Source: the human T2T-CHM13v2.0 reference genome, Homo sapiens
DNA length: 64,000 nucleotides
Assembly: GCF_009914755.1 (NCBI RefSeq)
Contig: NC_060948.1
Strand: one strand, 5' to 3'
Shown here: positions 8,653-43,056 of the stretch, piece by piece
How the letters are laid out: every line of letters begins with the position of its first letter
Position numbering within the stretch: position 1 is the first letter of the stretch
The notes under the pieces: model-generated
What the model was told of the DNA's origin: nothing
The model's database searches: none
Seen by the model: only the letters and a program-made list of their open reading frames with translations
Program-made: the position numbers and the translations under genes

Positions 8653-8796
8653 ACATGTTTCATTTTCTATCTTACTCTTCACCATTTATTTTCTTCTCAC
8701 ATTACTTATAATTTGTAACTTATTTTGTCAAATATATGAAATGAGGTAACACGGCAGTATTATAGAAAGCACACTGCATTGAAAACAGACTTATAT

Positions 8797-11124: not shown

Positions 11125-12350
11125 GCACTGGGCTCCAGGCTCCCCCAACAGACTTCAGGCAAACGGCGCCAGGAGCCGCGCCAACACCACCCGCCTCCCC
11201 CCGCGGTCAATCAGTCGGAGGGCGGTGGGCGTCTCCCTGGGCGGCACCAACCCAGGTTGGCCTGCAGTCCCAGCCTCCTGGGGTAACCCTCCTCTGAAAA
11301 GCCCTTGGAGCTTGTGCCAGGTAGCGCTGCGTCCAGGCACACGTGGGCTGCGTGGCCTTTGGAATTGCGGGCATGGGAGACCTGTGCCCTAACTGACATC
11401 CTGAATGTGGCAAATCATTGACCCACAAGGAGCACATGAAACATCTCATTTCATTAGGCAAGCCAGGTAGATGATACGGAATATTGCAGATCCAGAGGAG
11501 AACTCTCTCTGGCTGCTGGGGCGAGGGCAGTGGGGGTGGCCTGGGGAAAGTGGGTCGGGGCCGACGCTAGGGAGGAAAGTAGCCGGGTTATGCTTGGGTG
11601 GAAGTCGTCGCCTCTAGAGGCCAGAACCCCGGCAAGCGCTCTCGCAGGTCGAGGCAAATACAGGCTCCGCGTACCATGCTTCCTCCGTGAGGATGCTGTA
11701 CTCCGGGGAGCATTCCAAAGTGCCTCTCGTCCTATGCCCTAGGCACACCGGAGACCAGCCGCCAGGTTGGCCGTCGATATCCTGCGTGCACACAATTGTA
11801 CGCTGCCTTGCAGACCTAGAGGCTCCCGCACGTGCAGCAGCGGCTGCGGTGCCTGCTGGTGGGGCTCTGCAAGCCCAAGGCCTTGGGCTGTGGCTCCTGA
11901 GCTCCTGTGCGCAGTTGACCCTGCTGGGGACCTGAGCCCCAGGTCAAGTGCGGCGATCTGCGGGCCCAGCCGGGCTTTTCAGGAAACCTGCGTCTACGTA
12001 CCTGTGGGACTAGGTTCTCAGCAGGGCGAGGTCTGTGGGCCTTCCGGGGAGCGGGCCTCCTGGGGAGCGGCCCCAGAGCCTAGTGGTGCCGGGGATGGGC
12101 TGGGCTGCACAGACCGGGGTCTGCGGGAGTACCCAGGAGGGCACAGTGTTCAGGCGGGAGGCTCTGCTGGAGAGGACGGCCCGGGTACAGAGCAAGGAGG
12201 CGGCCTTGAAAGAGGAGGCGGTGCTGATGGTGGAAGACATAATGGCTGAGAAGGAGGTGGTGGTTAAGGAGGAGACCAATGTGTAGTGGCAGAAGGAGGA
12301 CCAGCGGGCACAGCCTGGCCCTGGACCCAGCAGAACCGGGCCGTGAATGG
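10540..12350. promoter_or_regulatory. CpG island and candidate bidirectional promoter between the divergent TSPY copies
   Basis: GC- and CpG-rich block in an AT-rich window, spanning both oppositely oriented exon 1 sequences. Promoter activity is inferred, not shown. Confidence 0.65.
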
Positions 12351-15050: not shown

Positions 15051-15436
15051 TAATTTCTTAGAATATTGAAAAAGCCAATTTAAATACAAAGAAAAATGGT
15101 TTGTTCATAATTGTATGCAAAACCTGCGGAAGGATCCATTTTCCATTACAAATCTTATGTGAGACTTGAAGTATTTATCAAGGTTTAAGATACATTTTTA
15201 TTGTTCTACTCTTGGCAAATTTTATGATCATTTTTGCAATACAGGAACATGGGCTCTAGAAAGTTTTTGAGGGACTTTCAGCTTCTTTTAGAGTACTTAG
15301 TTGTAAATTTTGAATGGTTTTCCCCTGTGGTTCTTTTCAGTTTACTATTTGTACTTTATATGCAAAGTGTTAAATTTGTTTTCTTATCTGCCCATTCTGG
15401 AACTTTTGTTTTCAAGAATTTTTTTTTTTCTGTTAG

Positions 15437-15815
<379 letters not shown>

Positions 15816-16426
15816 TCATTTGTTGTTTACGTATTTTAATCCTTGATCTATTTTCTTCATGTACACATATTTTAGAGTTATTGAAATCATATATTTTACT
15901 TACTTAATACTTTAGTAGGATTTTAAAAGTCATGTCTTCATTCACTAAATACAGTATTGTGAATAGGTTAAACCTTGTATAGTATTGTCATTCTGACTTC
16001 CATAAATTATTCAAGAACTCTGATACTGTTTTCTCCCACCTGAGAAGAACATGCAGATAGTTATAAAAAATTGTGTGAGTGGGTAGGTATGAGCATTTAA
16101 TTTGAAGGAATAGTAAAGTTCACAAACACAAGTTCACATTTGTATTTTGCATCACTTTGAAAATTTTATTTGCTGACATATGAAATTCTGTATTCGCCCT
16201 CATGTTAAATATACACTTTTGAATCAATTTCAAGAATGAAAATAATCCAAGGCCAAGCATTAGTTCAGGAAGTAAGTAGAAAGCAGTTGTTATGTAGAAA
16301 AAGCATATTTATTGAAGGTATATTTAGAGAGATTTTAGGAGGCTTAAGTCAATATTTTGTTTTTATTGCTCTGGTGTTTTATCATACTATGACCAGACTC
16401 TAGCATCACTAGTTATAGTCACAAGG

Positions 16427-16699
16427 CTACGAAAGTCTCAGAGGTGCAGTAATTATTATTGAAGTAAGTGGCACTGTGGTTGGCTGCTTAAGGAGACTAG
16501 AGGACTTAGGAGTTTACACCCAAGGCATAAAGGCCTAGTTTAGTGGGTGGCCTTCTTTTGCTGAAGTAGATATGACCCAGGAGAGGTGTGAACTCACTGT
16601 AGTAGCTAGGGCTTTGAGACTATTGAAGCTTATTTGTCTCCAACTGCCATTGCCAGATATTGGTCTACAAATAACGGCACTTCCTAGACTCACTGACTC
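16427..16699 (-). pseudogene. Protease pseudogene terminal exon (domain 2 Ser exon and C-terminal tail)
   Basis: 'tttacag|' then ESVSLGSAVICRPISGNGSWRQISFNSLKALATTVSSHLSWVISTSAKEGHPLN*AFMPWV*TPKSSSLLKQPTTVPLTSIIITAPLRLS*. This follows the 'GDSGGPLVC...W.Q.G..S...T.VS.Y..WI' pattern. Confidence 0.8.
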
Positions 16700-17277
16700 C
16701 TGTAAATTCAAACGTAGAATTTGGATTTAAATCCCTATTCCAACTTCTTAAACTTAGATCTAATAAATGGATAAAAAATATGCATTCAGAAGAAAGTGAG
16801 ACATCAGGTAACTACATAAGTAAATCATCCTGATGAAATACATTCAAAAGTATTACTACAAAAAATCACTGAAGATTAAACTTTAAAAAAGTTATTTAAT
16901 TAGGGAAATAGGAAAAGGTTAGACTCATTTTAAACTCTGAGGTGTAAAGATACTATTATTAGAATATGAGAATTATATAAAATGTCTAATTTGTTTCAAG
17001 GGCAGCATGCCAGCAATTTAGCATGGCTAGAGATTAGTGACCCATGTAAGAAAACTCAGAGATTAACAACAAAGTGTTTTCAGAGATTTTTTCTGCAATT
17101 GAAGACTTTTAAAATGGTTTCCTGTTAATCAATGATTCACTTAAATTTATCATTTAGGCATATGCTGTATACCCTTGTATATAGGAACAAAGTTATAGTT
17201 TCTATCACTATAGAACTACTATAAAACTAGTTACTATAGTTTTATAGTAGCTAGAAAAAAAATTTTTGACTGTGTAC

Positions 17278-17411
17278 CACATTTGCATTAGAGTCTTTGG
17301 CCTCAGTAACAAAGCAAACAATGGAGCTGCCTATGTCAGAATCCAGGTGGGCACAGATGGAAGCTTGCATTAGTTGCGTCTTTAACATTTCTGGATTCTC
17401 ATAAGTCTCCC
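17278..17411 (-). pseudogene. Protease pseudogene exon (domain 2, Cys-Cys loop exon)
   Basis: 'tttttctttctag|' then GETYENPEMLKTQLMQASICAHLDSDIGSSIVCFVTEAKDSNANV, then '|gtacac'. Phase 1 to 0, open frame. Confidence 0.78.
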
Positions 17412-17595
17412 CTAGAAAGAAAAATGGAGTATAGCTATCCTATAGAACATATTTTACAATTAAACACTAAGTATTGAGATAAAACCATGAATTGTCTATC
17501 ACTGTATCATTATTACTTTAAACTTGTATGTATAACTTATAGAAAGAAATTCAGTTTATAGCCAATAATTTCATTCTCTTTCTAGTGACTTCATT

Positions 17596-18200
17596 TTTTT
17601 TTTTTTTTTTTTTTTTGAGATGGTGTTTCACTCTGTCACTCAGCCTGGAATGCAGTGGCCTGATCTCACTGCAACTTCCACCTCTTGGTTTCAAGCAATT
17701 TTCCTGACTCAGCCTTCTAAGTAGCTGGGATTACAGGCACACACCACCACTCCTGCCTAATTTCATATTTTTGGTAGAGATGGGTTTTCCCCATGTTGGT
17801 CAGACTGGTCTCAAACTCCTGACTTCAGGTTATTCGCTGGCCTCAACCTCCCAAAATGCTGGGAGTACAGGCATGAGCGACGACACCAGCCCCCTCTCTT
17901 TTTTTCTGAGACAAGTTATTGTGTGGTCACACAGGCTGGAGTGCATTGGCACCACCTTCACATGCTGCAGCCTCAAACTCTCAGTCTCAAGCTATCTTCC
18001 TGTCTCAACCTCCCACGTAGCTGGGACTACATGTGTGCAACACCACACCAGGCTATTTGTTGTTGTTGTTGTTGTTGTTCTTTAGTGATGAAGCCTTGCT
18101 ATATTGCCCAAGTGGGTATCAAATTCCTGGGCCCAAAGGATTCTCCTAGTTCAAGCTCCCAAAGTGCTAGAATTATAGGAGTGAGCCACTGCGGACAGCA
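17596..18200 (-). mobile_element. Two adjacent Alus (AluS-like 17,596-17,890; AluJ-like 17,897-18,200) in a protease intron
   Basis: Poly-T heads, Alu left and right arms, and (ttg)n in the second linker. Confidence 0.9.
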
Positions 18201-18647
18201 TCATCACTCTTTAATCACTTTCTAAATGCCACTCTTCAAAAGTAACAAGTAAATTTTACTTATGAAATTCTAAACGCCAAGTCAAGTTCAGTTTAATTTT
18301 CATAAAGAGGGAAAAACAAAACAAACAAAAAAACTCCTTTTTCCTTTGTTTTGAAGTCAGCAAAGAGTTGGAAAGCAAATCATCTCTACTTTAGTTTACA
18401 AAATTGACTGTACAGGGAAAGATCCTCATGTAATTGTTTTCGGATCTAAAATCCTATGAAGTTATCATCAGAGCCATCATCTTATAAAATGAAAACAAAT
18501 CTCCTATTGGGTCTCTTATGTGGATTAAATATCTTACACTTAGTAATATATACAATTGTGATTGTACTTCTTCCTTGAACCATAATATTAAAAATATGAA
18601 CCTCATTTTTTAGAACTGCTACCCAAATAAGAAAACTAACCACTGAC

Positions 18648-18894
18648 CTGGTGTAATAATTTGTGGCCCAGAGAGCCGGCATGCTGAACTATTCAGGTTC
18701 TTCAGATAGCCCAAGGGGGCTAAGAGCCAAATGGGAGTCTGGACATCTTGGAGGAGTAGTAATGCCAGGTCATTCCTTCTGCCCCACTGACCAACTGGAA
18801 CCTCTCATGCAATAGAATACTAGACACCTTCACAACTCTCAATAATGCCCCACGGTGCCTCAGGCCCAGAATCACAGCGGTGTCTTCAGGATTC
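18648..18894 (-). pseudogene. Protease pseudogene exon (domain 2 Asp exon)
   Basis: 'cacacag|' then NPEDTAVILGLRHRGALLRVVKVSSILLHERFQLVSGA-(frameshift)-RNDLALLLLQDVQTPIWLLAPLGYLKNLNSSACRLSGPQIITP, then '|gtcagt'. NDLALL corresponds to the trypsin NDIALL motif. Confidence 0.9.
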
Positions 18895-19252
18895 CTGTGT
18901 GCATAGGCAAAGATTTATTGTGGTACATTCATTAGAAAACCTGAACCTTACACGTACATCAGGCTTTCTAGCATATTTTTTAGTCATGATACACAAGGTC
19001 CCTAGCTCATCTTCAGAGAAATCAGAAATATATGAATAAATCCCACAGACAATGGGATTGCAGAGGAATTAACTAACAGAGGTACTAGTAAGCCACAGTA
19101 AAGCAATTTCTTTTCAGCCTAAAACAAAAATGATATCTGTAGAAGTGAGATGGTCATGCATTATTGAAGTGAATTTGGACACAGAAACCTTCAGCAATGT
19201 AATTATAGGATAATGAATTACAGGGTATTGGAAGAGGCAGGCACAATCTTAC

Positions 19253-19388
19253 ATGTTCCTGACATAGTGGGCAGCTGTGAGAACCCAAGAGCTACTAACT
19301 ACGGAACCACTGCAGACCTGACTGCCACAGCTGATGATCCCAGCCTACCAAGGCATGGCATATTGCAGAGAAATCTGATCTGCTGAAG
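19253..19388 (-). pseudogene. Protease pseudogene exon (domain 2 His exon)
   Basis: 'ttttctcctcag|' then SADQISLQYAMPW*AGIISCGSQVCSGSVVSSSWVLTAAHYVRN, then '|gtaaga'. WVLTAAH is the trypsin His motif; TAG at 19,345-19,347. Confidence 0.92.
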
Positions 19389-20283
19389 CTGAGGAGAAAA
19401 ATAAGCTAATGTGCTAATTTGAATAGAATTGCCATCTGTAGACCATTATTTAAAGTTTTAAATCCCTCCTATTTCTGCTAACCAAGTCAGCATTGAGAAA
19501 TATGACTAGCAAGGACAAACTTCTACCTCTTTTGTGTTTATGCATTTTTCTTGAAAATAAGTGTTCTTATTATCTTTCCAAGATCATAGTTTCTTTATGT
19601 CCTAGCTTAAGTTTCTTTAGTCAAAATACTGGGAGTCATTCCAGCTTTCTCCCCCATTGCAACATTTATTTATCTATGATTTTAGCTACTTAGAAGTCAT
19701 TGAAGTAGATAGGCAACAAAAAATGCAATGATTTGAAGCTATTAGATAAATAGTGAAAAATCTGGAGATAAAGCACCTGTCTCTAAATTAGAGAGGGCTT
19801 ATCTTCATAAACGTATAGTGTTCGTGAGATACCAATCCAATAGTTTAAATAGAAAATTCAAGTTTGAGTTTCAGAAAAGAGCTTATATTTTTGAAATGAT
19901 TTTAGAGTTCCTCAGAAAATTGAGTTGAAGCAATGCTCCTGAATATATATAGAGAGATAACCTGTCTATAGAAAGGGTAAGCAAGTAGAGATGAAATTAG
20001 AAGCATAACTAATATCTTACATGTAGTTTTCTTTGAATTAGACTTGGAGGATGTGAGCAAATAATTATGGCCTCCTTTATGTTTTAAATATATTATTCAC
20101 TGTAGCTATAGAAATAGGGGTAGCTATAAAATAGCTGTGGTTAAATGCACATTTAATTCATGAGACCAAAAGAGATCCCTCAATTTCCAAGGAAATAATA
20201 TTTTGAAGGATGGCCGGAAGTAACTTTTGGTGTTCAAGATATTCCTTCTTCTCCCTGGCATTCACACCCCATGAATTTGTCAA

Positions 20284-20417
20284 CTTACAGCCAGGCTCCC
20301 ACGTAGCTTTCTTGGCCTCCACACAAAAAGTGAATTCATTTAGTTTTGGGCAAAATTGGTTACAAGTGCTGACTTGTAGGATGCTCAGGTGCTGTTTCTG
20401 CATAATTCCAGGACTCC
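20284..20417 (-). pseudogene. Protease pseudogene exon (domain 1, Cys-Cys loop exon)
   Basis: SPGIMQKQHLSILQVSTCNQFCPKLNEFTFCVEAKKATWEPGCK (inside ORF 20158..20403) follows the 'LQ...V.I.....C.......MLCA......DSC' pattern. Confidence 0.82.
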
Positions 20418-20583
20418 TTGATAGAAAACAGAGAAGAGGTTTTTGTGTTTGTTTTCATACTTAGCCTAGATTAGAGAGAGAATATGGTGAAGAGAAAGAC
20501 AAATACTTTATTATTCAAGAGAGAATAATATTCTCTTTCCAAACATGCTTCTCTTTCATCCCACTGTCTTCTTCATTACTCAG

Positions 20584-20842
20584 CCCACATAAGGGACCAA
20601 CTAGATAGCCAACAGTCATATAGTTGTATAAATTTCTCCTGTTCCAGACTTTCCTTCAGGCATATAGGAAGGACCAGGGGTTGAAAATATGGTGGCTGCT
20701 TCAGGAAGATCAACCCAGGTCACAGAATCACTTGGAACCTAGGTAGGGTATGGCACAGTCAATGCTGACAGTCTGAGCTTGGGCAGAATCTAGAAGATGA
20801 TTAAGCTCCACTTGGACCAGGGCCAGGGCTGCTGAGTTTTTT
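20584..20842 (-). pseudogene. Protease pseudogene exon (domain 1 Asp exon), both splice sites mutated
   Basis: KNSAALALVQVELNHLLDSAQAQTVSIDCAIPYLGSK*-(frameshift)-GLIFLKQPPYFQPLVLPICLKESLEQEKFIQLYDCWLSSWSLMW. 'PICL...CW..W' is diagnostic. The acceptor reads ccctg (AG lost) and the donor reads ctgagt (GT lost). Confidence 0.88.
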
Positions 20843-20974
20843 CAGGGGAAAAAAAAGTCAAGAAAAAGTCTTATTATTTCTACATTTCAATTTGAATAAA
20901 GCCCTGGAGGTCACGTGAATCAGATGAAGTCCAGGTAAGCACTAAAGTACAAATACTCCTTTAGAAACTATTTT

Positions 20975-21213
20975 CAAGGATCATTTGAGACCAGGTAGGC
21001 AACATGATAAGACTTTATTTCTGCTGAAAAAAAATTAGCCAGATGCAATGGTATGTGCCTGTGGTCCCATGAACTCAGGAGGCAGAGGTGGGAGAACTCC
21101 TTAATCTTGGTAGTTTGAGGCTACTCTGAATCACGCCACTGCACTCCAGCCTGGGCAATAGAGCAAGACCCTGTCTCTATCTCTCTTTCTCTCTGTCTCT
21201 TTCTGTCACATAG

Positions 21214-21250
<37 letters not shown>
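20975..21250 (+). mobile_element. Partial AluJ-like element followed by CT and (CA)n repeats
   Basis: 'ggatcatttgagacc...aaaattagcc...ccactgcactccagcctgggcaatagagcaagaccctgtctc', with (ca)n at 21,215-21,250. Confidence 0.85.
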
Positions 21251-21252
<2 letters not shown>

Positions 21253-21335
21253 GGTAAATATATTCCTTTAGAATCTCAATGTTATTATTGCTTTATAATG
21301 ATATCTTAATCTTAAGATAAATTTCTTAGACTTAC

Positions 21336-21504
21336 ATAAAATTGACACATCTAGCTGTAGTAAGGAAATAGTGTTCATTTAGTATGGAGCCAGCACAGAA
21401 ATGGGAGACAGAACGTTGTACAGAAACTATTCAAGAGAATTCACCAATTTCTGACTCCCAGCGGTTGTGACAGTGGGTGATATGGCCAGGGCATAATCCA
21501 CACT
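21336..21504 (-). pseudogene. Protease pseudogene exon (domain 1 propeptide and His exon)
   Basis: 'ttccttctgcag|' then (E)CGLCPGHITHCHNRWESEIGEFS*IVSVQRSVSHFCAGSILNEHYFLTTARCVNF, then '|gtaagt'. It matches 'ECG...EA..GEFPW.VS.Q....HFCGGSIL...W.LTAAHC'; TGA at 21,431-21,433. Confidence 0.92.
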
Positions 21505-22060
21505 CTGCAGAAGGAATACACATGTGGAATAGAGTGAGATTAGTGTTACTACTATCCTATTTATAAAATATAATTTTAGGTTTTTAGGAATGTTCTTGGA
21601 AATTCAGTATCTTCAATTCTGAGAAAATACTTGGAAATATACATTATTCATGCTACAATTTTAGATATGCTACAGAGGTTATTTGGATACTTTCCCTTCA
21701 AATGATAATTTAATGTATATATAAATATATAATATATCTTATTATTGTATCCAAGATATTATAGTATTATCCAGTTGTGGGTGTATATATTCATATACTT
21801 CAAGTGGAATAATAAACCATTTCTAAGAAGTAAGACTATCTTAAAAATACTCTTCTCTGAATAGAATTGTGTTTATAAAACATAGCCCATAAATCCTGTT
21901 TGGCAAAAGTAAGATATTCTCTCAATATTTAGACATCTCTGCTGATTCATACAATAATCTAAATTTTGGTTTTGCAAAGGTTTGAGGACATAACCTCTGA
22001 TCTTACAAACTGTGGTTTTAGGGTTCAACAAGAGTCTTCGTAGCAAGTATATTAACTCAC

Positions 22061-25000
22061 ACATATGACTAGTCTAAAGGTGCCTGTGGTTTCATGAGAA
22101 ATAACAGCTGTCTTGAAGAGCCAGAAAGCCTGGAAACTTCCAGATTACAGCTAGTTGACACTCAACCGGGAAACATTGAGTTCTGATTGCTTAAGAGGTT
22201 TTTGTCCAGGATTGGGTCCAGATTGAAATCCAGGCATCAGGAGAAGTTGTTTTGTTGAAAGTGTGGCTGCAGCAGCATGCAAGGATGAAAAAGAATGAGA
22301 AATAATGGACTCTTCAGGAAATGTTGAGGAAGATATTTTCTGAAGAACATTAGTAGAAGAGGCTATGGATAGGAGAACAAGAGAGGAGACCAGAGGATAA
22401 ATAACTGAGCAAGATGGGAAAATGAAGAATGAAGGGAATGTACAAGAAGAAAAGACTGAACAAGAAGGGCACAGTGTACATGGAGATGGAAGAGAATAAG
22501 AAAGAGGAAGGAAAATGGAGGAAGAAAGAGAGATAAGAGAGGTACCTGGACATCAGGGCTTTCTTTTATCTGGATAATTTTTAATTTCCTGCCGTAGTGC
22601 TGGTAAACACTCTTCCAGGAAACCAAGTACTTGTACGCTGGCTCAACTGGAGAGAATTGATTTTATCCTGGCTTTCGGTGGCAGTTATCTCAGTTAACAA
22701 AGATAAAATACTGATCTGGGTAAGAAACAGTTTTTACTGGCAAAAAGAGCACATGTTTAGACAAGGAGCCAAAATGACTCGTTAATAGTGTTTCTCCATT
22801 AGGCTCAATTTCAGGAGGAGAAAATGATGCAATTATATCAGCCTTAAAATGGTTTATGGGTCTTAGTATTTCTGTTTCAGGCTGGATCCATGTTCTTACT
22901 TTTCCCGCTTTAAAAATAGCAAAGGATTCAATAATATCAGCTTCAGACTGGATACAGTGTCTGTCTGCTTGGGTTACAGGCAGTATCCAACATACGAGTG
23001 TTCTTCCTATAAGCAAGGTCCGTGTTTTGACTACTGGAGGTAGAATCTTGGGTCAGAATCTTAGTAAGAAGGTTTCAGACTGGATAAAATGGTGAATTAT
23101 GTCAACTTCCAGCTGGATCCAGGGACTGACTGTTTGAGATTTTGAATAAACCCATGATCTGCCTTTATTCATTTGAATGTAAAATGAAGATCTGACTATA
23201 TTAGTTTCCTGCTCGATCGAGGGTCTCACTGCTTGGGTTTCAAGGTGGGTCCAGGTTTGATATGTAGCAGCTCTTGGCTGAGTCCAGGTCCAAAATGTAC
23301 CAACTTCAGTCAGTGGCCAGGGAAAGAGCAGCTGACTTTCAGGATGAATCCAGGGTCTAACTGTATCACATTAAGTCTATAAGCAAGATGTGACTGTATC
23401 AATTTCAGTCATGTTTCAGGGCTTTATTCCTTGGCTTACAGTCCAAATTTGGAAAACTTCAGTTTCAGGTTGGTTCCAGGATCTTACTGAATTCATTTGA
23501 GTCTGGAACAGGTATCTTATCACTATATTGTCTTCAGGGTGGGTCCAGGGATGAATTTCAGAGTAAGTCCATGGTCTGATTGTAGCACGTACATGCTGAG
23601 TCCAGGAATAATTTATGCTAACTTGATTCTGGATCTAGGAGTGTGTCATTTGAGATCCAAGTTGGGTCCAGGGCCAAACAGAAGCGTTATGAGTTGGGGA
23701 CCAACATGTCACCATACCTACCTCATGCCACATCCTAATTGCTTGAGATTCAGGCTCAGTCCATTGCTCTATTTTATCAGTTGCAGAATGTGTCTCGTGT
23801 CTGACTGTATTGGTTTCAGCATAGATCCAAGGTTTCAGAACATCACCTTCAGACTGGGTCCAGGGTATGACTGCATTCTTTTCAGATTGGTTCAATGGGC
23901 GGATTATTTGCCATTCTGGCTTCATCCAGGTAGTAACTCTTTGAGAAGAAAGTTGAGTACCACTTCTTCTTACATTGTTTTGGGTCTGAAACCAAGCACT
24001 CAGAGTATTAATGTCAGGCATGGTCAAGCATTTTGCTGCCTGCATTTCAGCCAGATATAATAGTGTGTCAGACAATGATTGTATTAATGTTGCCTTGAGT
24101 CCAGGGGTGGATTGTGCCTGCTTCAGACCGGATCCATAGTTTTACTGTATGAGCTTCAGAAATGGTCTGGGATCTCATTGTACCTACTTCAGATTGGGTA
24201 CACAGGAAGAAGCCATCAATTTCAGACTGGATCCATGTTATAAATGTTGTAGTTCTCTGTTTGGCCCAGGATTCTATTTTACCAGGTCCAAAGGGAGTAA
24301 ACGTGCTCAATGTTTGAAATTCTGACTGAGCCCAAGGTTTTATTTTTTCTGTTCCAGTTTTAAACGAAGTTCTTTAACTTGAGCTTCAGGTTGGGACCAT
24401 GGTTTTGCTGCTTGAGGCACAGCCAGTATCCAGGATATAAGTGTTCCAAACTCAGGCAAGGTCCATTCATCGATATTTTCAATTTCATGATGTGTCCATA
24501 AAATAGATGCTTGATTTTCATCTTGGATCAAAAGTTGCGTAGTATAAGGTTAAGGCAGCAAGGAAACTCTATAAATATTTTAGCTTCAGGCAGTGCCTAG
24601 AGTTTCTTAGCTTCAGTTTTAACCATCATCCAAAATGAGCCCATATCACTCTGTGTATAAGAATTTGCATCTGGAAAATCATCATGAGTCCACTTTGTGT
24701 CTGTGGAAGCTGTGGCCTCTGTCCATGTGTTTACCACTGGAGACTCAGACTGAGATCATGGGGTGATTGATTTGGACACAGGTAGTGTCCAGGTTTTTCC
24801 TGCTGAAGGGATACCCTGGGTCCATGGTAACACTGAGGAAACTGCAGCCCATGCAGTTTCTCAGCCCATGCATGCCTCTGGATTTTCTGCTGAAGTTTCA
24901 TCATAGTTCCATGATATAAGTATATCAGATACAGTCTGTGTCCAGGTAATTCCTACTGGAGACTGGGCCAGAAGTCACAGTATAATTTTGTCAGATACTG

Positions 25001-28000
25001 GCTGTGTGGAGGTAATGACTGCAGAAGATTCAGCCTGCACCCACAGTGCAACTATATCAGATACAGAATGTATCCAGGGATTTGTTGCTAGAAGTAAAGC
25101 TTTGATCCATGGGGTGACTTGGTAGCTATTGCCTCTATCCATGGATTGACTGCTAGAGATACAGGCTGGGTCCACAGTGATAATGTATTAGATATAGGCA
25201 GTATCCAAGGATTTACTGCTGAAAATTCAAATTGGATCAATCCTATGTATGTCTCAGATACAGGCAGGATCCATGTAATTAATGCTGCAGATTCAGTTTG
25301 GGACCATAATCTGATTGTATTAGATGAAGGCTGTGCCCAGGCCTTTACTGTTGCAGATACAGCCTGTGCCCAAGTTGTAGCTGTATAAAAAACAGGCTGT
25401 GTCCAGGGATTTATTGCTGGAAATTCAGCCTGGGTCCAGGGTATAACTTTGGAAGCTACAGCCTCTGTCCAGATATTTACTGGTAGACATTCAGTTTGAT
25501 GCCCTGCTTTAAGTGTACCATGTAAACTTTATGAAAAGAAGATTAATGATGGAGTTACAGGCTGTGTACACACTGTGAATGTATCAGCAACAGACTTGGT
25601 CCATGGATTTACTGCCAAAAATTCAGTCTGTGTCCATGGTATGACTGTGTCAGTCTCATCCTGTAACAGAGGACTTGGGACTGAACATTCAGACTCTGTC
25701 CAGATATTTACAATTAGAGACTTAGACTGCATCATGGGATTTACAGCTGGAAATTCAGCCTCATTCCAAGTGTTTACTTATAGATATTTTGTTTAGGTCC
25801 ATAGTGTGACTGTATCAGGTACAGGTTGTAACCAGAAATTGATTGCTGGTGATTTTGTCTGTGTCCATGTTATGAATATATCAGCTAGAGCCTCTCTCCT
25901 GAGAATTATTATTAGAAATACATCCGTGTACTGCAGTGTGTCTATATGAGTTACAGCCAATGCTAAGTGACTTATTGCTGGCAACAGATCCTGGGTCCAT
26001 GATGTGACTTTCTCAGTTTTAGACTGTCTCCATAGATTTACTACTACATAAACATTCTTAGCCAATGGTTTCACTCTATCAATAAGTATATGTACAGAGA
26101 TTATTGATTTTAGAATGAGCCTGGGTCCACAGTAAGACAATTTCTGTTTCAAGCTTTGTGGAGGGATTTACTCCTACAGGTTCATCTTGGTTCTGTGGTA
26201 TAACTGCAGCAGGTATAGGCTGTGTCCAGTCATTTACTTTTGGAGATTCAGTCTTGGTCTACTGTATGAAGGTATCAGTTTCATATTGTTTCCAGAGATT
26301 TATGGCAGGTAATTTGACTTGGTTCCAGAGTTTGATTGTATAAGCTATTGCCTGTGTCAAATGCTTTACTGCTGAAGATTCATCTTGGTCCCATGGTTTG
26401 ATTCTATAAGATAGATACTGTGTAAAAGGATTCATTGCTGGAGAGTCATCCTGAATCCACAGTATAGTACTATCACCCAGAGACTGCCCAGGGATTTACA
26501 GCTGAAAATTCAGGCTTGGTCCACAGCTTGTCTGCATCAGCTGTTGTCTGTGTCCATGAATTTACTGCTAGAGAATTAACCAGGATCCACTCTGTGACTG
26601 TATACATTTCAGACTTTGTCCATGCATTTCCCTCTTTAAGTTCAGCCTAATTCCTTGGTAGGACCATATCAGCTGTAGCCTCTCTCCAGGCATTCATTGC
26701 TGGAGTTTCACCCAGAATCCATGTTTGAGTCCAAGATACTGGTGGATGTTCAGGGTGGGTCCATGATAGGAATATATCATGTGTCCAGGGACTTACTCCT
26801 AGAGTTTCAGCCAGAATCCATGTTGTGAGTATATCAGTTTCAGACTGTTTCCAATGATGTAATAATAGCGATTCAGCCTGGATACACATTATTATGACTG
26901 TATCAGATATAGGAGAATATATTCATGAATTCATCACTAGTGATTCATCATTGGTCCCTAGTGTGATTATATCAGTTACCTACTGTTTCCAGGAATGTAT
27001 TGCTGGAACCTCAATCTGGGTTCACAGTGTTATTGCCTCAGTATCAAACTGTATCCAGTAATTTACTGCTGGCAAATAAGCCATGGTCCACAATGAGACT
27101 GGATTAAATTCAGATGGGAGTAAGTTATTTCCTTCTAGATATTCAGGCTGCAATTTTTCCATGGATTTATTGGTGGCATTTCATCAAGGGTCAATGGTAT
27201 GACAGTTTCAGCTACAGTTTTTGCCCAGAGATTCACTGTTGTAAATCTATCCTGGATCCATGGTGTGACTGTCTTAGCTATACGAATATGTCAAGGGAAA
27301 TAAGGCTGGAAATTCTTCTTGGTTCCAACATGTGACTTTATCAGATACAGAATGTGTCCAGAGATTCACTGCTGGAGATTTGGCAATAGTTCACAGTATG
27401 ATTGGATCAGTTTCAGACTGTCTTCAGGATGTTAATTTTTGAAATTCAGCCTTTGTCCATGTTGTGACTGTATCTGCTAACATCTTGGTCCAAGAGTTTA
27501 CTATTGGAGTTTCAGTCTGGGTCCACAGTGGGACTGTGTGAGTTTTAGATTGTGTCCAGGGATTTAATTCTTGAGACTCTCCCTGCATCCATTGTGTTAG
27601 TACGGTAGCTTTACTTTGTACCCAGGGGTCAATTACACCAATGTCTTTCTGATTCCAGGGTCTCAAAGTGTCATCTTCAGCTTGGGTCCACGATCTAACT
27701 TTAACACTTTCAAACTTGCCCCAGAGTCTAAATGCATAAGCTTCATGTTGTATCCAGTCTCTTAACTTATCAGTCACAGGTTGGTTCCAAAACCTCAATA
27801 TTTCAGTTTCAGACTGTATCCAATGCTGATTTGTCAGAGTTACTGGTTCTCTCCACTGTGTGACTGTCTCTGCTTGAGATCAAAACAAAAGTTTGATGAT
27901 ATCAGCTTCAGTGTGATTTCGGGGTCTGGATCTATCACCTCCAGTTTGGGGCCTGGGTACCACTGTTTCCATCCCAGTTTGGGACCAGTACCTAACTGGA

Positions 28001-29534
28001 TCTGCTTCTGGTTGGGTCCAGTGTTTTTCTTTCCATTCTTGAGTCTGGGTTCTGGGCCTCAGTATTTTAAATTTATGCTGAATCCAAGGTCTCATTGTTT
28101 CCATTTCAATTTGTAACTGTTGTTTAATTGTATCAGCTTTCAGGTGAGTCAAGAGTCTTCCTGATTGAGTTTCTGACTAGATTCACGTTAGGACTATGAC
28201 TGTTTTAGGCTGACTTCAGGGTTTGATCATCTCAACTTTGGAGTGAATTGAGGGCTCAATTGCATTCATAATAGGATGTATTAAGATTCATGTCTGCATC
28301 AGGGGTTTCAGTAATAATAGCCACATGTTTACTCAATGGACTCAATCTATCTATTTGATTTGAGGGCCTCATTATACTGGTTTTCTGTTGTGTCCAAGCC
28401 CTAATATTGTCACCTTTTAACTTTGCACATGAAGAGTATGCAGTATAGAAGAAATCCAGAACTGAGTTGACTCAGGTTCAGTGAGAATCTAGTATCCATC
28501 TGTCCTTTCTATAATTTCTTGGGGATACAAATATATTCAACACTAGCTGACACCATGGTTCAAAGGTATGGGTTACTGTAGGATGCTGAGATCCATCTTC
28601 ATTGAGTGATCAATGAGTCCATATTTCAATTTTATTAACTATGAAAAGTACTGGTGGAATCTAGTTGTAAGTTGCTGGTTTTGCACCAGGGTTAACTCTA
28701 TGAGCTACATGATACTTTTGGTTTCTAGTACTCTCTTCACTGGATTTAATCTGCATCACTGTTCCTGTTTTATAAGCTAACAATTGTTTCTAAGTTTCAA
28801 CTTCAGGAGTAATTTCTAGCCAAGGTTTAGCTACAAGTTGTCCATGAGATGGAACATTAATAAATTGAACTTGAGATTGACCAGTATCCATCTTAACAGG
28901 AACTTGAGATTCACCTATCCCACTTGAAAAGAGAAACCAGGATGTACCAGCATTAACTAATGGTAGAGTATGAAGCCTAATTGTACTAGCTAATGTATTA
29001 ATCCAGAATCTTGCTGAATCAGTCACAGCTTAATATTTATAATCCATTGTATTTTTCTCAGGAAAATTCCAGGCTATAGGTTTAATATCTGTTTGGGAGT
29101 TCTGGAGTCCAGAAAAAAAAAGAAATATTGAGAAGTTTCCATTTCTGGGGTACTCCAGCATTCAGCTGTACCAGGATGATCCCGTGGTTTGGCAGCAGGA
29201 GAAATCCGGGATTGTACCATTGGGAATTTGCTAGCTGAGGAGAGGTGACCACTTTGAAAGTGTAATAGTCTATTGGCATGAAAAAATCTCTATTATTCTA
29301 ACCAAAAAAAAAAAAAAACATTCAGTGGGGGTTCCGGTGCTTTCTGTACACTGGGGAAGTGCTTAATCTTCTCCTCCTTATTTGTTCTGAGAATCCATGA
29401 AAGATCAAATTGTCAGAGCCTGTATTAGAGGTAACTGTATTTTGTGGACTATCTTCTACTCCAGGAGAAAAATTGCAGGGTAGAGAAAAAAATACCCCCA
29501 GTGGTTTCTGGGATGCCTTGATAAGCCATCTCAT
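22061..29534 (-). pseudogene. Decayed giant exon encoding ~11-aa Trp-periodic repeats (PWTQxExxxVx)
   Basis: Many minus-strand ORF fragments share one repeat, e.g. 27424..27798 'RFWNQPVTDKLRDWIQHEAYAFRLWGKFESVKVRSWTQAEDDTLRPWNQKDIGVIDPWVQ'. No transposon interrupts the 7 kb. There is a candidate donor GTGAGT at 22,060. The 5' end is either the ATG at 29,534 or an acceptor near 29,298. Confidence 0.8.
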
Positions 29535-29587
29535 TCAAGATATGTATTGGGCTGTCCTGATGACAAGAACGGGGTCATAACAGGCTT

Positions 29588-29661
29588 CTGAGGTATCACT
29601 AACCAGGCCTACTACTGAGGTATCACTGACCAGGCCTACTACTGAGGTATCACTGACCAGG
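29588..29661. repeat. 27-bp tandem repeat, ~2.8 copies
   Basis: 'ctgaggtatcact(a/g)accaggcctacta' starts at 29,588, 29,615 and 29,642. Confidence 0.92.
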
Positions 29662-29740
29662 CAGTGACTGCCAAAGAGGCAAAGAACAGGATGACCTTGC
29701 TGTACCTGAATGGTTGGAAACAAAGTTAACCATATATGTT

Positions 29741-30340
29741 AGAAATACACATAGATGTGTAGTATACATGTATTACAATATGTAATGCATAAATTACATA
29801 TACATGCAATACATATATATTAATTATAAAATATACAGATACATATCTTGTATATGTTTATGAATACTTATATCAATAAATTATATAGTTTATATGGCTT
29901 ATATATTAAATTAAAAGATACTAAACTATAAGTATAAATTTTACTTTTCTATCTCATGTACATTTCATATTACTTGATGGGCAGTAATAAATAATATATT
30001 GTACATACTTCAAGAGTTCCATATAACACTTAGGCATAAATAATTCTAACTGTGGTTAAAACAGTAAAATCAAGCACTAGAAGGAAATTAGAGGAAGGTT
30101 CTAAACAATACAAATTACCTACATACTCAACATCATTATCTGAATATTACTTATGCCTTTAGCCAAGCAGTCTTAGGCAAAGCACAACTTATACGATCAT
30201 GTGAAATGACTGTTTGTGTCACCTCCTCTGCCATTACATTTGTTGATGCCATCATTATTTGTTTAGTCTCTCTGTTTAATTCTGATGCCCACTTGCAGCT
30301 TGCAGTTTGTTCTCCTAGTAGCCAGAATTATACTCAGAGT
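29741..30340 (+). repeat. Direct repeat copy 1 (~600 bp), left of the L1
   Basis: Colinear with 33,168-33,743; shared blocks include 'gagttccatataacacttaggcataaataatt', 'caacatcattatctga', 'tcacctcctctgccattacatttgttga' and 'gaattatactcaga'. Confidence 0.9.
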
Positions 30341-33170
30341 AAACACTTATTGTAAAATCGACTACATAGTTGGAAGTAAAACAATCCTCAGCAAATGCGA
30401 AAGGATAGAAATCATAACAAACAGTCTCTCAGGCCACAGTGCAATCAAACTAGAACTCAGTATTTAAAAATTCACTCAAAACTGCACAACTATGTGGAAA
30501 CTGAACAAACTGCTCCTCAATGACTGCTGGGTACATAATGAAATGAAGGCAGAAATAAAGATGTTATTTGAAACCAATAAGGACAAAGACACAGCATACC
30601 AGAATCTCTGGGAAACATTTAAAGCAGTGTTTTGAGGGAAATATATAGCACTTTTAATGTCCAGAAGAGAAAGTAGGAAACATCTTAAATTGGCACACTA
30701 ACATCAACATTAAAAGAACTAGAGAACAAGAAAAGCAAAAGCAACAAATTCAAAAGCTAGGAGAAGACAAAAATAAATAAGATCAGAACAGAACTGAAGG
30801 AAACAGAGACATGAAAACACTTCAAAAAAATCAATGAATCCAGGAGCTGGTTTTTTGAAAAGATCAACAAAATAGATAGACCACTAGCCAGACTAATGAA
30901 GAAAAGAGAGAAGAATCAGACGTAATAAAAAATGATAAAGGGGATATCACCATTGATCCCACAGAAATACAAACTACCATCAGAGAATACTGTAAACACC
31001 TCTATGCAAATAAACTAGAAAATTTAGAAGAAATGGATAAATTCCTGGATGCATACACCCTCCAAAATCTAAACCAGGAAGAAATCGAATCTCTGAATAG
31101 ACCACTAACAAGTTCTGAAATTGAGGCAGTAATTAGGAGCCTATCAACAACAACAACAACAAAAGGTCGAAGAGTAGGTTGTTCACAGAAGAATTCTACC
31201 AGAGGCACAAAGAGGAGCTGGTACCATTCCTTCTGAAACTATTCCAAACAATAGAAAAACAGGAAATCCACCCTAACTCATTTTATGAGGCCAGAATCAT
31301 CCTGATATCAACATCTGACAGAGACACAGCAAAATAAGAAAATTTCAGGCCAATGTCTCTGATGAACATTGATGCAAAAATCCTCAATGAAACACTGGCA
31401 AACCAAATCCAGCAGAATATCAAAAAGTGTATCCACCATGAAGAAGTCACGTTCATGCTTGGGATGCAAGGCTGATTCAACATGCACAAATCAATAAACC
31501 TAATCCATCACATAAAGAGAATCAATGACAAAAACCACATGATTATCTCAACAGATCCAGAAAAGCCCCTCGATAAAATTCAACATACTTCATGATAAAA
31601 ACTGTCAGTGAACTAGGTATTGATGGAATGCATTTCAGAATAATAAAGCTACTCATGACAAAACCATAGCCAATATAATACTGAATGGCAGAACCTGGAA
31701 GCTTTCCATTTAAAAACCTGCCCAAGACAAGGTTACCCCCTCTCTCACCATTCCTATTCACCACAGTTTTGGAAGTTCTGACAAGGGCGATCAGACAAGA
31801 GAAAGAAAGTGTATTCAAAGAGAAAGAGAAGAAATCAAATTGTCTCTGTTTGCAGATCACAAGATTGTATATTTAGAAAATTGCACTGTCTCACCTCAAA
31901 ATCTCCTTAAGCTTATAAGCAACTTCAGGAAAGTCTCAAGATACAAAATCAATGTGCATACATCACAAGCATTCCTATACTCCAATAGCAGACAAGCAGA
32001 GAGCCAAATCACAGTCATCTCACACACACAGTTGTTACTAAGAGAATAAAATACCTAGGAAAGTAACTCACAAGGGATGTGAAGGACCTTTTCAAGGAGA
32101 ACTACAATCCACAGCTCAAGGTATAAGAGAGGACACAAATACGTGGAAAAGCATTCCATGCTCATTATAGGAAGAATCAATATCATGAAAATGGCCCTAC
32201 AGTGCAAAGTAATTTATAGATTCAATGCTATCACCATAAAGTTGCCATCTGACAAGGGATAACATATTAATCTGACAACAGACCAATATCCACAATCTAC
32301 AAAGAACTTAAACAAATTTACAAGAAAAAAACTAAACCAACCCATCAAAAACTGAGTGAAGGGTATGAAGAGATACTTCCCAAAAGAGGACATTTATGCA
32401 GTCAACAAACATGAAAAAAGTTCATCATCCCTGGTCATTAGAGAAACGCAAATCAAAACCACAATGAGATACTATCTCATGACAGTTAGAATGGCTATCA
32501 TTAAAAAGTCAGGAAACAACAGATGCTGGAGAGGATGTGGATAAGTAGGAACGCTGTTACACTGTTGGTGGGAGTGTAACTTAGTTCAACCACTGTGGAA
32601 TACAGTCTGGTGACTCCTCAAGGCTCTAAAACTAGAAATACCATTTGACCCAGCAATGTCATTATGGGTTATGTACTCAAAGGATTATAAATAATTCTAC
32701 TATAAAGACACGTGCACACTTACGTTTATTGACACATTGTTCACAATAGCAAAGACATGGAACCAACTCAAATGTCCATCAATGATAGATTGGATAAAGA
32801 AAATGTGGCACATATACACCATGGAATACTAAGCAGCCATAAAATAAGATTAGTTTATGTCATTTGCACGGACATGGGTGAAGCTAGAAAGCACCATTCT
32901 CAGGAAACTAACACCAGCACCGGAAGCCAATCACCACATATTCTCACTCATAAGTTGCAGTTGAACAATGAGAACACATGGACACAGGGAGGGGAATATC
33001 ATACACCAGGGCCTGCCAGGGGTGGAGGGCTAGAGGAGGTATAGCAGTAGGAGAAATACCTAATGTGTGTGACAAGTTGATGGGTGCAGCAAACCACCAT
33101 GGCAGGTTTATACCAGTGTAACAAAACCGCACGTTCGATACATGTACCCCAGAACTTAAAGTATATAAAA
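30341..33170 (+). mobile_element. 5'-truncated older L1PA (L1PA7/8-like) with an internal ORF2 deletion near 32,247
   Basis: Decayed ORF2 from 'catagttggaagtaaa'; the jump 'aagttgcca|tctgacaaggg' skips roughly 0.6 kb; 3' UTR 'gcagcaaaccaccatggca...cccagaacttaaagtatataaaaa'. Confidence 0.92.
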
Positions 33171-39208: not shown

Positions 39209-39719
39209 GAAATAACACAGATTTCAAACTGAATTGATTTTATGAATGCTGATTGCCTGTACTCAACTGGTTTTCTGCATAACTCATTTATATTTATTAT
39301 ACTTTAGAGTTTTCTACTCCAGGGCCCAGAAATTCAAATCAGTTTTATTATCAAAATACAATGGAATATTTACAGTTTTCAAATGGGAAAAAAGTAACTC
39401 AGTACTTAAGATTGATTTTTCAATATTTCATTTTTTATGTGTGTATACCTGTGCAAACATCTATGCAGATGAATCGCTTTGTAATTTTGATAAACAGAGT
39501 TTGTACATTGGCTTGCCATAAAGCGTTTTCAATTGAAGAAATGTAGAACTTTAATTTCTGAAAACAGTCTGTGACTCTGGAAATGTCTAAGAACTACTGC
39601 TTCACACATATCTATATATCTTTCTTTGCTGAAGGATGAGTCTCTGAAAATGATATTCATGAGTGATTTACACAAAAGAAATAAGGGGTTATTTCTACAT
39701 AAAAAAGAAAATCAAACCA

Positions 39720-40140: not shown

Positions 40141-43056
<2,916 letters not shown>

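What the first reader, a model, noticed from the sequence alone, without database searches (positions are those of the whole stretch)
22860..28200. About 5.3 kb of cryptic 33-bp/66-bp periodicity encoding an 11-residue tryptophan ladder
Seen: on the plus strand 'tcca' (the reverse complement of a Trp codon plus the next base) recurs about every 33 nt in 'gggtccaggg', 'tgtgtccatg' and 'ctggatccat'. Minus-strand fragments show W every 11 aa. In the centre (~24.7-27.6 kb) two variants alternate, 'PWTQPVxDTVT' and 'xWTQAE(S/F)PAVN', giving a 22-aa higher-order unit. Length divided by 33 suggests roughly 160 units (an estimate). Units are too diverged to look like a DNA satellite, so the pattern was probably maintained at protein level. 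Inference: a beta-solenoid with stacked Trp, or a Thr/Ser-rich extended stalk, on a sperm protein. I do not recognise it as a named domain.
Basis: partly seen in the sequence, partly recalled or inferred. Interest (0 to 1): 0.8.

Follow-up and report, generated by a model that had tools for sequence, protein, structure and literature searches.

The report
Dead PRSSLY gene's tryptophan-repeat exon
The periodic stretch is the decayed giant exon of PRSSLY, a Y-linked testis protease gene that died in the human lineage; the locus is already described in print, but its 11-residue tryptophan motif gives a handle on a protein region so far called featureless.

Summary
Base identity peaks at lag 33 (z 27.6) and lag 66 (z 33.5). 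There are 159 units in 22,860-28,200, of which 140 are exactly 33 nt and 99 carry TGG at the Trp column.

The tract is the giant exon (about 29,740-22,085, minus strand) of an unannotated PRSSLY pseudogene. All downstream trypsin-like exons follow at 21,511-16,430.

Intact relatives in slow loris, mole, sheep and bats share the motif W-[TI]-Q-x-E-x-x-[TI]-[VI]-x-P.

Hughes et al. 2022 (PMC9178871) already report human PRSSLY pseudogenes and a giant exon with "no identifiable domains". Li et al. 2013 (PMC3759724) noted "an array of divergent repeats" in the dog orthologue.

The Trp frame alone is depleted of stop codons: 31 against 65.8±5.4 expected. Since the human copies split, substitutions have been neutral.

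At least 11 substantial copies and 2 fragments lie on chrY, and every examined TSPY array unit keeps the last two PRSSLY exons.

Interest is low to moderate.

The parts
22085..29740 (-). Giant exon of a PRSSLY pseudogene (about 7.6 kb; the ends are approximate)
   Evidence: A colinear tblastn chain of the slow loris model P0024 (residues 1-2817) runs from 29,711 to 22,085. Sheep, bat and unnamed orthologues map to the same span.
29328..29705 (-). Start of the giant exon: C-terminal end of an N-terminal trypsin-like domain plus linker
   Evidence: P0011 residues 96-207 align at 54% identity. P0024 residues 1-105 align at 48%.
29588..29662 (-). 27-bp x2.8 tandem duplication inserted in that protease-like tail (human-side insertion relative to P0011)
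   Evidence: TRF reports 97% matches. The alignment gap against P0011 is seen.
28304..29110 (-). Non-periodic linker of the giant exon
   Evidence: P0024 residues 175-442 align at 40%. P0009 residues 27-297 align at 28%, E 8.5e-19. Lag-33 signal here is weak.
22824..28284 (-). Strongly periodic array of about 165 degenerate 11-codon units, consensus W-T-Q-[PSAT]-E-[STA]-x-[TAI]-[VIL]-x-[PLS]
   Evidence: Autocorrelation; wraparound profile and residue tallies; frame runs.
24600..27650 (-). Central part where two unit types alternate, giving a 22-residue / 66-nt higher-order unit
   Evidence: Lag 66 exceeds lag 33 here.
22085..22492 (-). Cys/Ser/Pro-rich low-complexity tail of the giant exon and the junction to the first C-terminal trypsin-like domain; 2 stops
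   Evidence: Aligned to P0024 residues 2677-2817 at 54%.
21335..21511 (-). Exon of C-terminal trypsin-like domain 1 (reads LTTARC where active proteases have the His motif); 1 stop
   Evidence: 66% identity to P0024 residues 2816-2874 and 68% to sheep P0022.
20284..20841 (-). Further exons of trypsin-like domain 1 (best pieces 20,719-20,588 and 20,439-20,284)
   Evidence: 89% identity to sheep over 44 residues.
19252..19410 (-). First exon of trypsin-like domain 2 (reads LTAAHY); 1 stop
   Evidence: 74-75% identity to P0024 and P0022.
18643..18893 (-). Exon of trypsin-like domain 2, aligned in two pieces (18,893-18,783 and 18,777-18,643), so an indel lies between them
   Evidence: 89% and 76% identity to P0024.
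17278..17412 (-). Penultimate PRSSLY exon
   Evidence: 62-64% identity to P0022 and P0024.
16430..16699 (-). Last PRSSLY exon, with a hydrophobic C-terminal tail; 2 stops
   Evidence: 68% identity to sheep P0022 residues 1734-1823.

Best explanation
The 33/66-bp periodic tract is the decayed giant coding exon of a PRSSLY pseudogene (protease, serine-like, Y-linked; DYNG in dog), read on the minus strand.

In the functional ancestor this single exon encoded roughly 190 degenerate copies of an 11-residue unit, W-[TI]-Q-x-E-x-x-[TI]-[VI]-x-P. In the centre the units were organised as alternating A/B pairs of 22 residues. The exon lay between the end of an N-terminal trypsin-like domain and two C-terminal trypsin-like domains, followed by a hydrophobic tail.

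Shown here: selection kept that one reading frame open while the units diverged, and the same motif persists in intact orthologues of several mammalian orders.

Shown here: in the human lineage all copies have drifted neutrally since they split. They were spread over the Y together with TSPY and RBMY sequences. Inferred: the gene had lost function before that spread.

Inferred, not shown: in species where the gene is intact, the repeat region is a beta-rich, Thr/Ser-rich extracellular spacer or solenoid. It would hold the protease-like domains away from the germ-cell or sperm membrane, by analogy with the GPI-anchored paralogue PRSS55. In human the tract has no protein function.
For: Identity of the gene:
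- A read-through of a sister copy (P0001, X at stops) was searched with phmmer against 1.84 billion representatives and gave 19 hits at E<=0.001. They include P0007 (2357 aa, E 1e-28, 13 stretches), P0009 (3058 aa, 8e-24), P0011, P0014 and P0020.
- P0020 and its relatives are annotated uncharacterized proteins of Rousettus, Rhinolophus, Ovis and Castor, and carry two Pfam Trypsin stretches. A search with P0007 found Nycticebus and Talpa models.
- The slow loris model is colinear with the window's minus strand from 29,711 to 16,451, with 2,948 aligned positions at a mean identity of 45%.
- That paper's supplementary 'Human (model)' and sheep sequences match by eye. About 60 nt of the human model match window ~27,541-27,600, and the sheep snippet translates to the N-terminus of P0022.

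Coding origin:
- The Trp frame has 31 stops in 2,016 codons, against 84-186 in the other five phase frames.
- 100 column-preserving shuffles give 65.8±5.4 stops in the Trp frame, minimum 47.
- A majority consensus of six paralogue lineages drops to 14 stops (shuffles 52.3±4.8), while the other frames stay at 83-188.
- The longest Trp-frame ORF rises from 168 aa in the window to 416 aa in the consensus.

Motif conservation:
- Trp pairs at lag 11 number 88 in Nycticebus (shuffle mean 7.3), 49 in Talpa (5.4) and 46 in Ovis (3.8). The residue preferences at all 11 positions are the same across species.

Neutral decay in human:
- Derived substitutions number 676, 670 and 627 at codon positions 1, 2 and 3 (p=0.31).
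- Per-site rates are 0.067 at the Trp codon and 0.071 at the Gln codon, against about 0.068 overall.
Against: - Information per column of the 33-nt unit is not 3-periodic, and several third codon positions are among the best-kept columns. Part of the DNA periodicity therefore reflects common descent of units by duplication rather than selection on residues.
- Hughes et al. report Ka/Ks near 1 for the upstream ORF, so constraint on individual residues is weak.
- The six-lineage consensus still has 14 stops and about 6 frame changes in the periodic part. Either the gene was already broken before the copies spread, or the consensus is imperfect.
- Exons for the first ~95 residues of P0011 (the N-terminal protease-like domain) were not found in the window.
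- The match to the published human model was made by eye on a short printed snippet only.
- The between-species excess of identity at Trp is inflated, because the aligner rewards W-W pairs.
- The proposed role of the repeat region rests on composition and analogy only.
- Mouse Prssly knockouts are fertile. One study reports a modest female bias (PMC9178871 abstract). Another reports offspring sex ratio among the parameters that remained unaffected (PMC7617377 passages).
Confidence: 0.95

Rival explanations
1. The tract is an old, non-coding 33-bp minisatellite, and the tryptophan ladder is a by-product of a unit that happens to contain TGG.
For: - Young 33-bp VNTRs on chr5, chr4 and chr10 (two loci) give Trp-every-11 frames and were picked up by the protein searches.
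- The plus strand also shows long ORFs, with the longest ORF in the region being 189 aa on the plus strand.
- Column information is not 3-periodic.
Against: - Only one of the six phase frames is depleted of stops, and only that frame gains stops from consensus to present copy.
- The tract is colinear with annotated proteins of six mammals and is flanked by the matching trypsin-like exons.
Confidence: 0.01
2. The periodicity is kept mainly by repeated birth and death of units (DNA-level duplication of 33- and 66-nt blocks) in a nearly unconstrained spacer. On this view selection acts only against stops and for Trp and bulk composition, not for a folded repeat domain.
For: - Ka/Ks is near 1 in the upstream ORF, and homology is seen only between close species (PMC9178871).
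- Exon length differs greatly between species (same source).
- Third codon positions are conserved between units.
- A 66-nt x2 block at 76% identity lies at 26,318-26,450.
- Positions other than Trp show only 0.34-0.50 identity between species.
Against: - The same preferences at all 11 positions recur in bat, sheep, mole, loris and two unnamed proteins that are only 26-30% identical overall.
- The motif shows a beta-like alternation: hydrophobic moment 0.74 at 160 degrees against 0.49 at 100 degrees.
Confidence: 0.3
3. One or more human copies still act, as a low-level testis transcript (lncRNA) or through short ORFs, so the tract is not merely a relic.
For: [quoted passage not shown]
- Open frames of up to 364 aa are reported around matches in the copy at 22.32 Mb.
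Against: - Substitutions are evenly spread over codon positions and motif positions in all six lineages.
- No Rfam family matches 16,000-30,500.
- RefSeq annotates nothing here (hub table).
Confidence: 0.04

Closest known systems
PRSSLY / DYNG (protease, serine-like, Y-linked)
   Same: - Colinear homology over the giant exon and all C-terminal trypsin-like exons.
- Y-linked.
- A giant single exon upstream of the protease domain, as described in PMC9178871.
- The dog orthologue was said to contain 'an array of divergent repeats' (PMC3759724, passage read).
   Different: - The window copy is a pseudogene, with 31 stops and about 13 frame changes in the periodic part alone.
- It is one of at least 11 substantial copies, whereas PRSSLY is reported single-copy where functional.
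- The 11-residue Trp motif and the 22-residue A/B unit are not mentioned in the main text or legends that I could read.
PRSS55, the closest paralogue of PRSSLY according to PMC9178871
   Same: - Trypsin-like domain.
- Testis-specific expression.
- PRSS55 is GPI-anchored (abstract of PMC6208766), and PRSSLY orthologues end in a hydrophobic tail.
   Different: No counterpart of the repeat turned up outside chrY in the human genome: protein and DNA searches with the giant exon hit nothing there except unrelated 33-bp VNTRs and one unchecked weak match on C19.
Aromatic-rich beta-hairpin solenoids such as choline-/cell-wall-binding repeats, and Thr-ladder antifreeze beta-solenoids (recalled, not tested)
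   Same: - Short repeats of about 11-22 residues with one conserved aromatic residue.
- A Thr/Ser face alternating with polar residues.
   Different: - No sequence similarity was detected. Of 529 PDB matches the 60 listed all fall in the trypsin-like domain.
- The repeat has no Cys.
- The fold was not predicted here.
33-bp VNTR minisatellites (chr5:3.556 Mb, chr4:1.544 Mb, chr10:1.674 and 133.864 Mb in this assembly)
   Same: 33-nt period, and a Trp-every-11 frame.
   Different: The VNTR units are 88-99% identical, GC-rich and open in several frames. The Y tract has units about 45% identical, with a single frame that is poor in stops.

Membership tests
PRSSLY (as a pseudogene copy) | Trypsin-like serine protease domain orthologous to that of PRSSLY | tested here: met
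   - Exons at 21,511-16,430 match sheep, bat and loris models at 62-89% identity.
- Pfam Trypsin is found in those models.
- A trypsin-domain DNA snippet printed from the paper's Additional file 5 (species label not shown in the passage) translates, by eye, to nearly the same residues as the trypsin-like domain of P0020.
PRSSLY (as a pseudogene copy) | Massive single exon upstream of the protease domain | tested here: met
   About 7.6 kb of uninterrupted colinear homology, 29,711-22,085. The feature is described in PMC9178871 section 5.
PRSSLY (as a pseudogene copy) | Y linkage in eutherians, with no X homologue | tested here: met
   The window is chrY (hub table).
- DNA search with the giant exon: 39 of 39 matches on contig C24.
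- Protein searches: 59 of 60, 117 of 123, 46 of 46 and 74 of 75 matches on C24.
- The exceptions that were checked are VNTRs. One weak match on C19 (E 0.066) was not checked.
PRSSLY (as a pseudogene copy) | Agreement with the published human PRSSLY pseudogene model | tested here: inconclusive
   Only a printed snippet of about 400 nt of the 'Human (model)' was seen. Its first part matches window ~27,541-27,600 (minus strand) by eye with a few mismatches. No computed alignment was made, because the paper's sequence was not entered into any tool.
Functional PRSSLY gene | Intact open reading frame | tested here: not met
   - 31 stops in the Trp frame and about 13 frame changes in the periodic part.
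- Stops in 4 of the exon alignments downstream.
Functional PRSSLY gene | Testis-specific expression | not testable with these tools
   No expression data are available here. Hughes et al. report low-level transcription of the human pseudogenes.
Non-coding tandem repeat (minisatellite) | No reading frame favoured over the others | tested here: not met
   The Trp frame is depleted of stops by 6-8 standard deviations. The other frames lie within about 3.
Beta-solenoid repeat domain | Regular stacked coil with an aromatic ladder in a confident model or structure | not tested
   Structure prediction accepted no jobs. The only indication is a beta-like hydrophobic moment.

The most novel reading that the evidence does not exclude
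The 'featureless' giant ORF of PRSSLY may be a definable and so far unnamed repeat domain. It would consist of 100-250 copies of an 11-residue unit, W-[TI]-Q-x-E-x-x-[TI]-[VI]-x-P, paired into 22-residue A/B units. The motif is conserved from bats and ruminants to strepsirrhine primates and may fold as a beta-rich Trp-stacked solenoid.

In the human lineage the dead gene was carried along when TSPY and RBMY were amplified. As a result, every unit of the TSPY array still holds the last two PRSSLY exons.
Probability: 0.35. Interest if true: 0.5.

Novelty: already known. Interest (0 to 1): 0.3.

Why it matters
As a locus it is ordinary. It is one more copy of a pseudogene whose existence on the human Y was published in 2022, although RefSeq does not annotate it in this window.

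Two things have modest value.

First, the human relic exposes the repeat grammar of the giant PRSSLY exon. The defining paper describes that exon as having no identifiable domains and homology only between close species. An 11-residue motif profile links the exons of distant mammals: phmmer from the human relic reaches them at E 1e-28. This makes repeat-aware alignment, position-specific selection tests and structure prediction possible for a gene whose function is still open.

Second, PRSSLY relics sit next to TSPY sequence here and inside every examined TSPY array unit, with an RBMY pseudogene also in this window (linkage to RBMY at the other copies was not examined). This gives a marker for reconstructing how the human ampliconic Y blocks were assembled.

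Tried and rejected
- Pfam on 7 window ORFs found nothing above chance.
- The search for homologous proteins with a 187-aa ORF of a sister copy, 'longer' proteins only, found none among 107 candidates. The word index misses this family; exhaustive phmmer found it.
- Of the 19 phmmer hits I fetched 6. One of them, P0018 (712 aa, E 3e-4), has its own unrelated repeat and no Trp ladder, so I dropped it. The short hits P0002-P0006, P0008 and P0010 (62-155 aa, 74-94% identical) were not examined further.
- Non-Y genome hits on chr5, chr4 and chr10 (two loci) were checked and are homogeneous 33-bp VNTRs. A weak hit on C19 (E 0.066) was not checked.
- ADGRG4, perilipin/apolipoprotein-type 11-mers and mucins were considered from memory and dropped once the orthologues were found.
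- ESM Atlas look-alikes for the sheep repeat region scored 0.75-0.76, which is within the chance range.
- The PDB sequence search gave 529 matches; the 60 listed all fall in the trypsin-like domain.
- Rfam found no family in 16,000-30,500.
- Upstream exons of the N-terminal protease-like domain were not found in the window.
- Structure prediction accepted no jobs on three tries, each after the stated wait, so no fold, fold search or complex test was done.
- Literature: 'PRSSLY' + 'tandem repeat' returned 0 papers. 'tryptophan' and 'periodic' have 0 occurrences in the PMC9178871 main text. '11-residue repeat' + tryptophan + sperm, and beta-solenoid + tryptophan + 11-residue, gave nothing relevant.
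Full report
**1. The observation**

Between 22,860 and 28,200 the fraction of identical bases at lag 33 is 0.427, and at lag 66 it is 0.462. The composition predicts 0.261, giving z values of 27.6 and 33.5. All further multiples of 33 up to 198 also peak. Four control stretches of equal length elsewhere in the window give 0.26-0.29.

A sliding profile places the strong signal at about 22,800-28,300, with a weak tail to about 29,000. Lag 66 beats lag 33 from about 24,600 to 27,600.

TCCA occurs 92 times on the plus strand. Of the 91 successive distances, 34 are exactly 33 and 13 are exactly 66. Shuffles give 0.07 on average.

The units are therefore far too diverged for a satellite call.

Of these, 140 are exactly 33 nt long and 99 carry TGG at the Trp column.

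**2. Is it coding?**

This was not obvious at first, for three reasons:
- TGGATCCA is its own reverse complement, so a Trp ladder also appears on the plus strand.
- The longest ORF in the region is on the plus strand, at 189 aa.
- The information per column of the unit is not 3-periodic.

I therefore counted stop codons in the six frames defined by the repeat phase. The minus-strand Trp frame has 31 stops in 2,016 codons. The other five frames have 84-186. Shuffling bases within columns among units gives 65.8±5.4 for the Trp frame, with a minimum of 47 in 100 shuffles. The other frames lie within about 3 SD of their shuffles.

Next I projected five further paralogue lineages onto the window copy and took a majority consensus. 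This lowers the Trp-frame stops to 14 (shuffles 52.3±4.8) and leaves the other frames unchanged at 83-188. The longest Trp-frame ORF grows from 168 to 416 aa.

One frame was therefore kept open while the units diverged, and it is now filling with stops. That is the signature of a dead coding exon.

**3. What gene?**

Pfam found nothing, and a word-indexed protein search found nothing.

I read a sister copy through with X at its stops (P0001) and searched it with phmmer against 1.84 billion representatives. This returned 19 hits at E<=0.001. Among them are long proteins P0007 (2357 aa, E 1e-28, 13 matched stretches) and P0009 (3058 aa), plus P0011, P0014 and P0020.

P0020 is an uncharacterized protein of Rousettus with two Pfam Trypsin stretches. 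Its relatives come from Rhinolophus, Ovis and Castor. A search with P0007 added Nycticebus and Talpa.

The literature search for PRSSLY led to Hughes et al. 2022 (PMC9178871; I read the abstract, sections 5, 7 and 9, legends and passages of supplements). That paper reports the following:
- PRSSLY is a testis-specific Y-linked gene.
[quoted passage not shown] The supplementary sheep sequence translates by eye to the N-terminus of P0022. The 'Human (model)' snippet matches the window's minus strand near 27,541-27,600 by eye.

**4. Anatomy in the window**

The slow loris model is colinear with the minus strand from 29,711 to 16,451, with 2,948 aligned positions at a mean identity of 45%. The parts, in order along the minus strand, are:
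- the tail of an N-terminal protease-like domain, 29,705-29,328, with a 27-bp x2.8 duplication at 29,588-29,662;
- a non-periodic linker;
- the periodic array, 28,284-22,824;
- a Cys/Ser/Pro-rich tail ending at 22,085;
- exons of two trypsin-like domains at 21,511-21,335, 20,841-20,284, 19,410-19,252, 18,893-18,643, 17,412-17,278 and 16,699-16,430.

Several of these exons contain stops. Upstream exons were not found. RefSeq lists no gene here (hub table).

By eye, the first C-terminal domain reads TTARC and GDLGAP where active proteases have His and Ser. The second domain keeps TAAHC in the orthologues. The canonical motifs are recalled, not taken from a call.

**5. The repeat as a protein feature**

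In the window, the residue tallies by motif position are as follows:

| Motif position | Commonest residue(s) | Count |
|---|---|---|
| 1 | Trp | 106 of 185 units |
| 2 | Thr / Ile | 68 / 40 of 182 |
| 3 | Gln | 83 of 182 |
| 5 | Glu | 72 of 182 |
| 9 | Val / Ile / Leu | 131 of 186 |
| 11 | Pro | 54 of 187 |

In the six-lineage consensus, Trp occupies 126 of 184 units.

Intact orthologues show the same grammar:

| Species | Trp pairs at lag 11 | Shuffle mean |
|---|---|---|
| Nycticebus | 88 | 7.3 |
| Talpa | 49 | 5.4 |
| Ovis | 46 | 3.8 |
| Rhinolophus | 28 | 2.6 |
| P0009 (unnamed) | 36 | 4.8 |
| P0007 (unnamed) | 23 | 2.9 |

The preferred residues at all 11 positions are the same across these proteins.

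Between species, pooled identity is 0.75 at Trp and 0.34-0.50 at the other positions. The aligner favours W-W pairs, so this excess is inflated.

The repeat parts contain 23-25% Thr plus Ser (21% in P0009), 4-6% Trp and almost no Cys. The pooled motif from 270 regular units alternates small/beta-branched and polar residues. Its hydrophobic moment is 0.74 at 160 degrees and 0.49 at 100 degrees. This is a hint of beta structure and argues against an amphipathic 11/3 helix.

The solenoid versus stalk question therefore stays open.

**6. History in human**

The giant exon has 39 DNA matches, all on chrY. They group into 11 loci with more than 1 kb (this copy; a 99.7% partner at 10.15 Mb; pairs or singles at 6.17/9.96, 10.24, 22.32 and 8.55 Mb; four copies at 22.79-26.92 Mb) plus fragments at 7.355 and 8.445 Mb.

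K2P distances between lineages are 0.097-0.184. With a recalled primate Y rate of about 1.5e-9 per site per year, this corresponds to very roughly 30-60 million years.

Derived substitutions are evenly spread over codon positions: 676, 670 and 627, p=0.31. They are also evenly spread over motif positions: Trp 0.067, Gln 0.071, mean about 0.068. Only position 11 is higher, at 0.088. All copies have therefore drifted neutrally since they split.

This fits Hughes et al., who find PRSSLY intact in mouse lemur but dead in catarrhines.

**7. What is new and what is not**

The locus type (human PRSSLY pseudogene) and the giant exon are in print. So is the statement that the dog orthologue DYNG holds 'an array of divergent repeats' (PMC3759724, passage).

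I found no statement of the 11-residue Trp motif or of the 22-residue unit:
- 'tryptophan' and 'periodic' have 0 occurrences in the PMC9178871 main text.
- The legends were read.
- 'PRSSLY' + 'tandem repeat' returned 0 papers.

The main text of PMC9178871 does not mention TSPY or RBMY, and it calls PRSSLY single-copy where functional. The multi-copy spread in human and the relic inside the TSPY array may therefore be undescribed, but this is a side observation.

**8. Verdict**

This is a correct and sharp observation whose object is an already known, non-functional gene relic. Interest is low to moderate. Its value is the repeat grammar it reveals for an otherwise uncharacterised giant exon of a gene with an open function. 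Knockout mice are fertile. One study reports a modest female bias (PMC9178871). Another reports offspring sex ratio among the parameters that remained unaffected (PMC7617377, passages).

Noticed in passing
window 10,008-17,701; G000:C24:8,998,327-9,547,369: Each examined ~20.3-kb unit of the TSPY tandem array is colinear, at 80-82% identity, with window 17,701 -> 10,008. That span covers the last two PRSSLY exons followed by TSPY sequence. The array unit therefore begins inside the dead PRSSLY gene. At least 26 periodic hits were listed, although only 40 of 19,063 candidates were scored.
   Followed up: partly
window 10,640-10,918 (TSPY19P) and 16,430-29,740: The slow loris RefSeq model P0024 fuses PRSSLY (Trypsin) with a NAP domain. 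Its NAP part aligns to TSPY19P in the window, in the same order and on the same strand. The PRSSLY-then-TSPY adjacency is therefore older than the human amplification.
   Followed up: partly
L011 ~7,040-10,000 and L013 1-3,635 (G000:C24:22.321-22.328 Mb): The sister copy at 22.32 Mb is split by an insertion of about 6.6 kb that contains retrovirus-like ORFs. It was only seen in an ORF listing and left out of all alignments.
   Followed up: no
L012 (chr5:3.556 Mb), L020 (chr4:1.544 Mb), L021 and L027 (chr10:1.674 and 133.864 Mb): These are homogeneous GC-rich 33-bp VNTRs (88-99% unit identity where measured) that are open in several frames, up to 765 aa. They give Trp-every-11 translations and appear as false relatives in six-frame protein searches.
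   Followed up: yes
window 39,600-40,000 and 43,000-43,600: There is very strong identity at lag 31 (0.66-0.78 in 400-nt windows). These stretches lie inside the RBMY2GP span, within or adjoining stretches that NCBI masks as repeats. This is probably a 31-bp tandem repeat unrelated to the finding.
   Followed up: no
window 24,855-24,870 and 24,538-24,725: Alignments of all other lineages covering this part break at a 16-bp stretch (24,855-24,870), suggesting an insertion private to the window copy. About 190 bp (24,538-24,725) has no counterpart in the copies at 22.32 and 10.24 Mb.
   Followed up: no
G000:C24:5,914,798-5,921,001 (31-37 kb before the window): Another PRSSLY trypsin-exon relic (84-87% identity) lies just upstream of the window, near TSPY13P of the hub table. 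It has a partner at 10.232 Mb.
   Followed up: no
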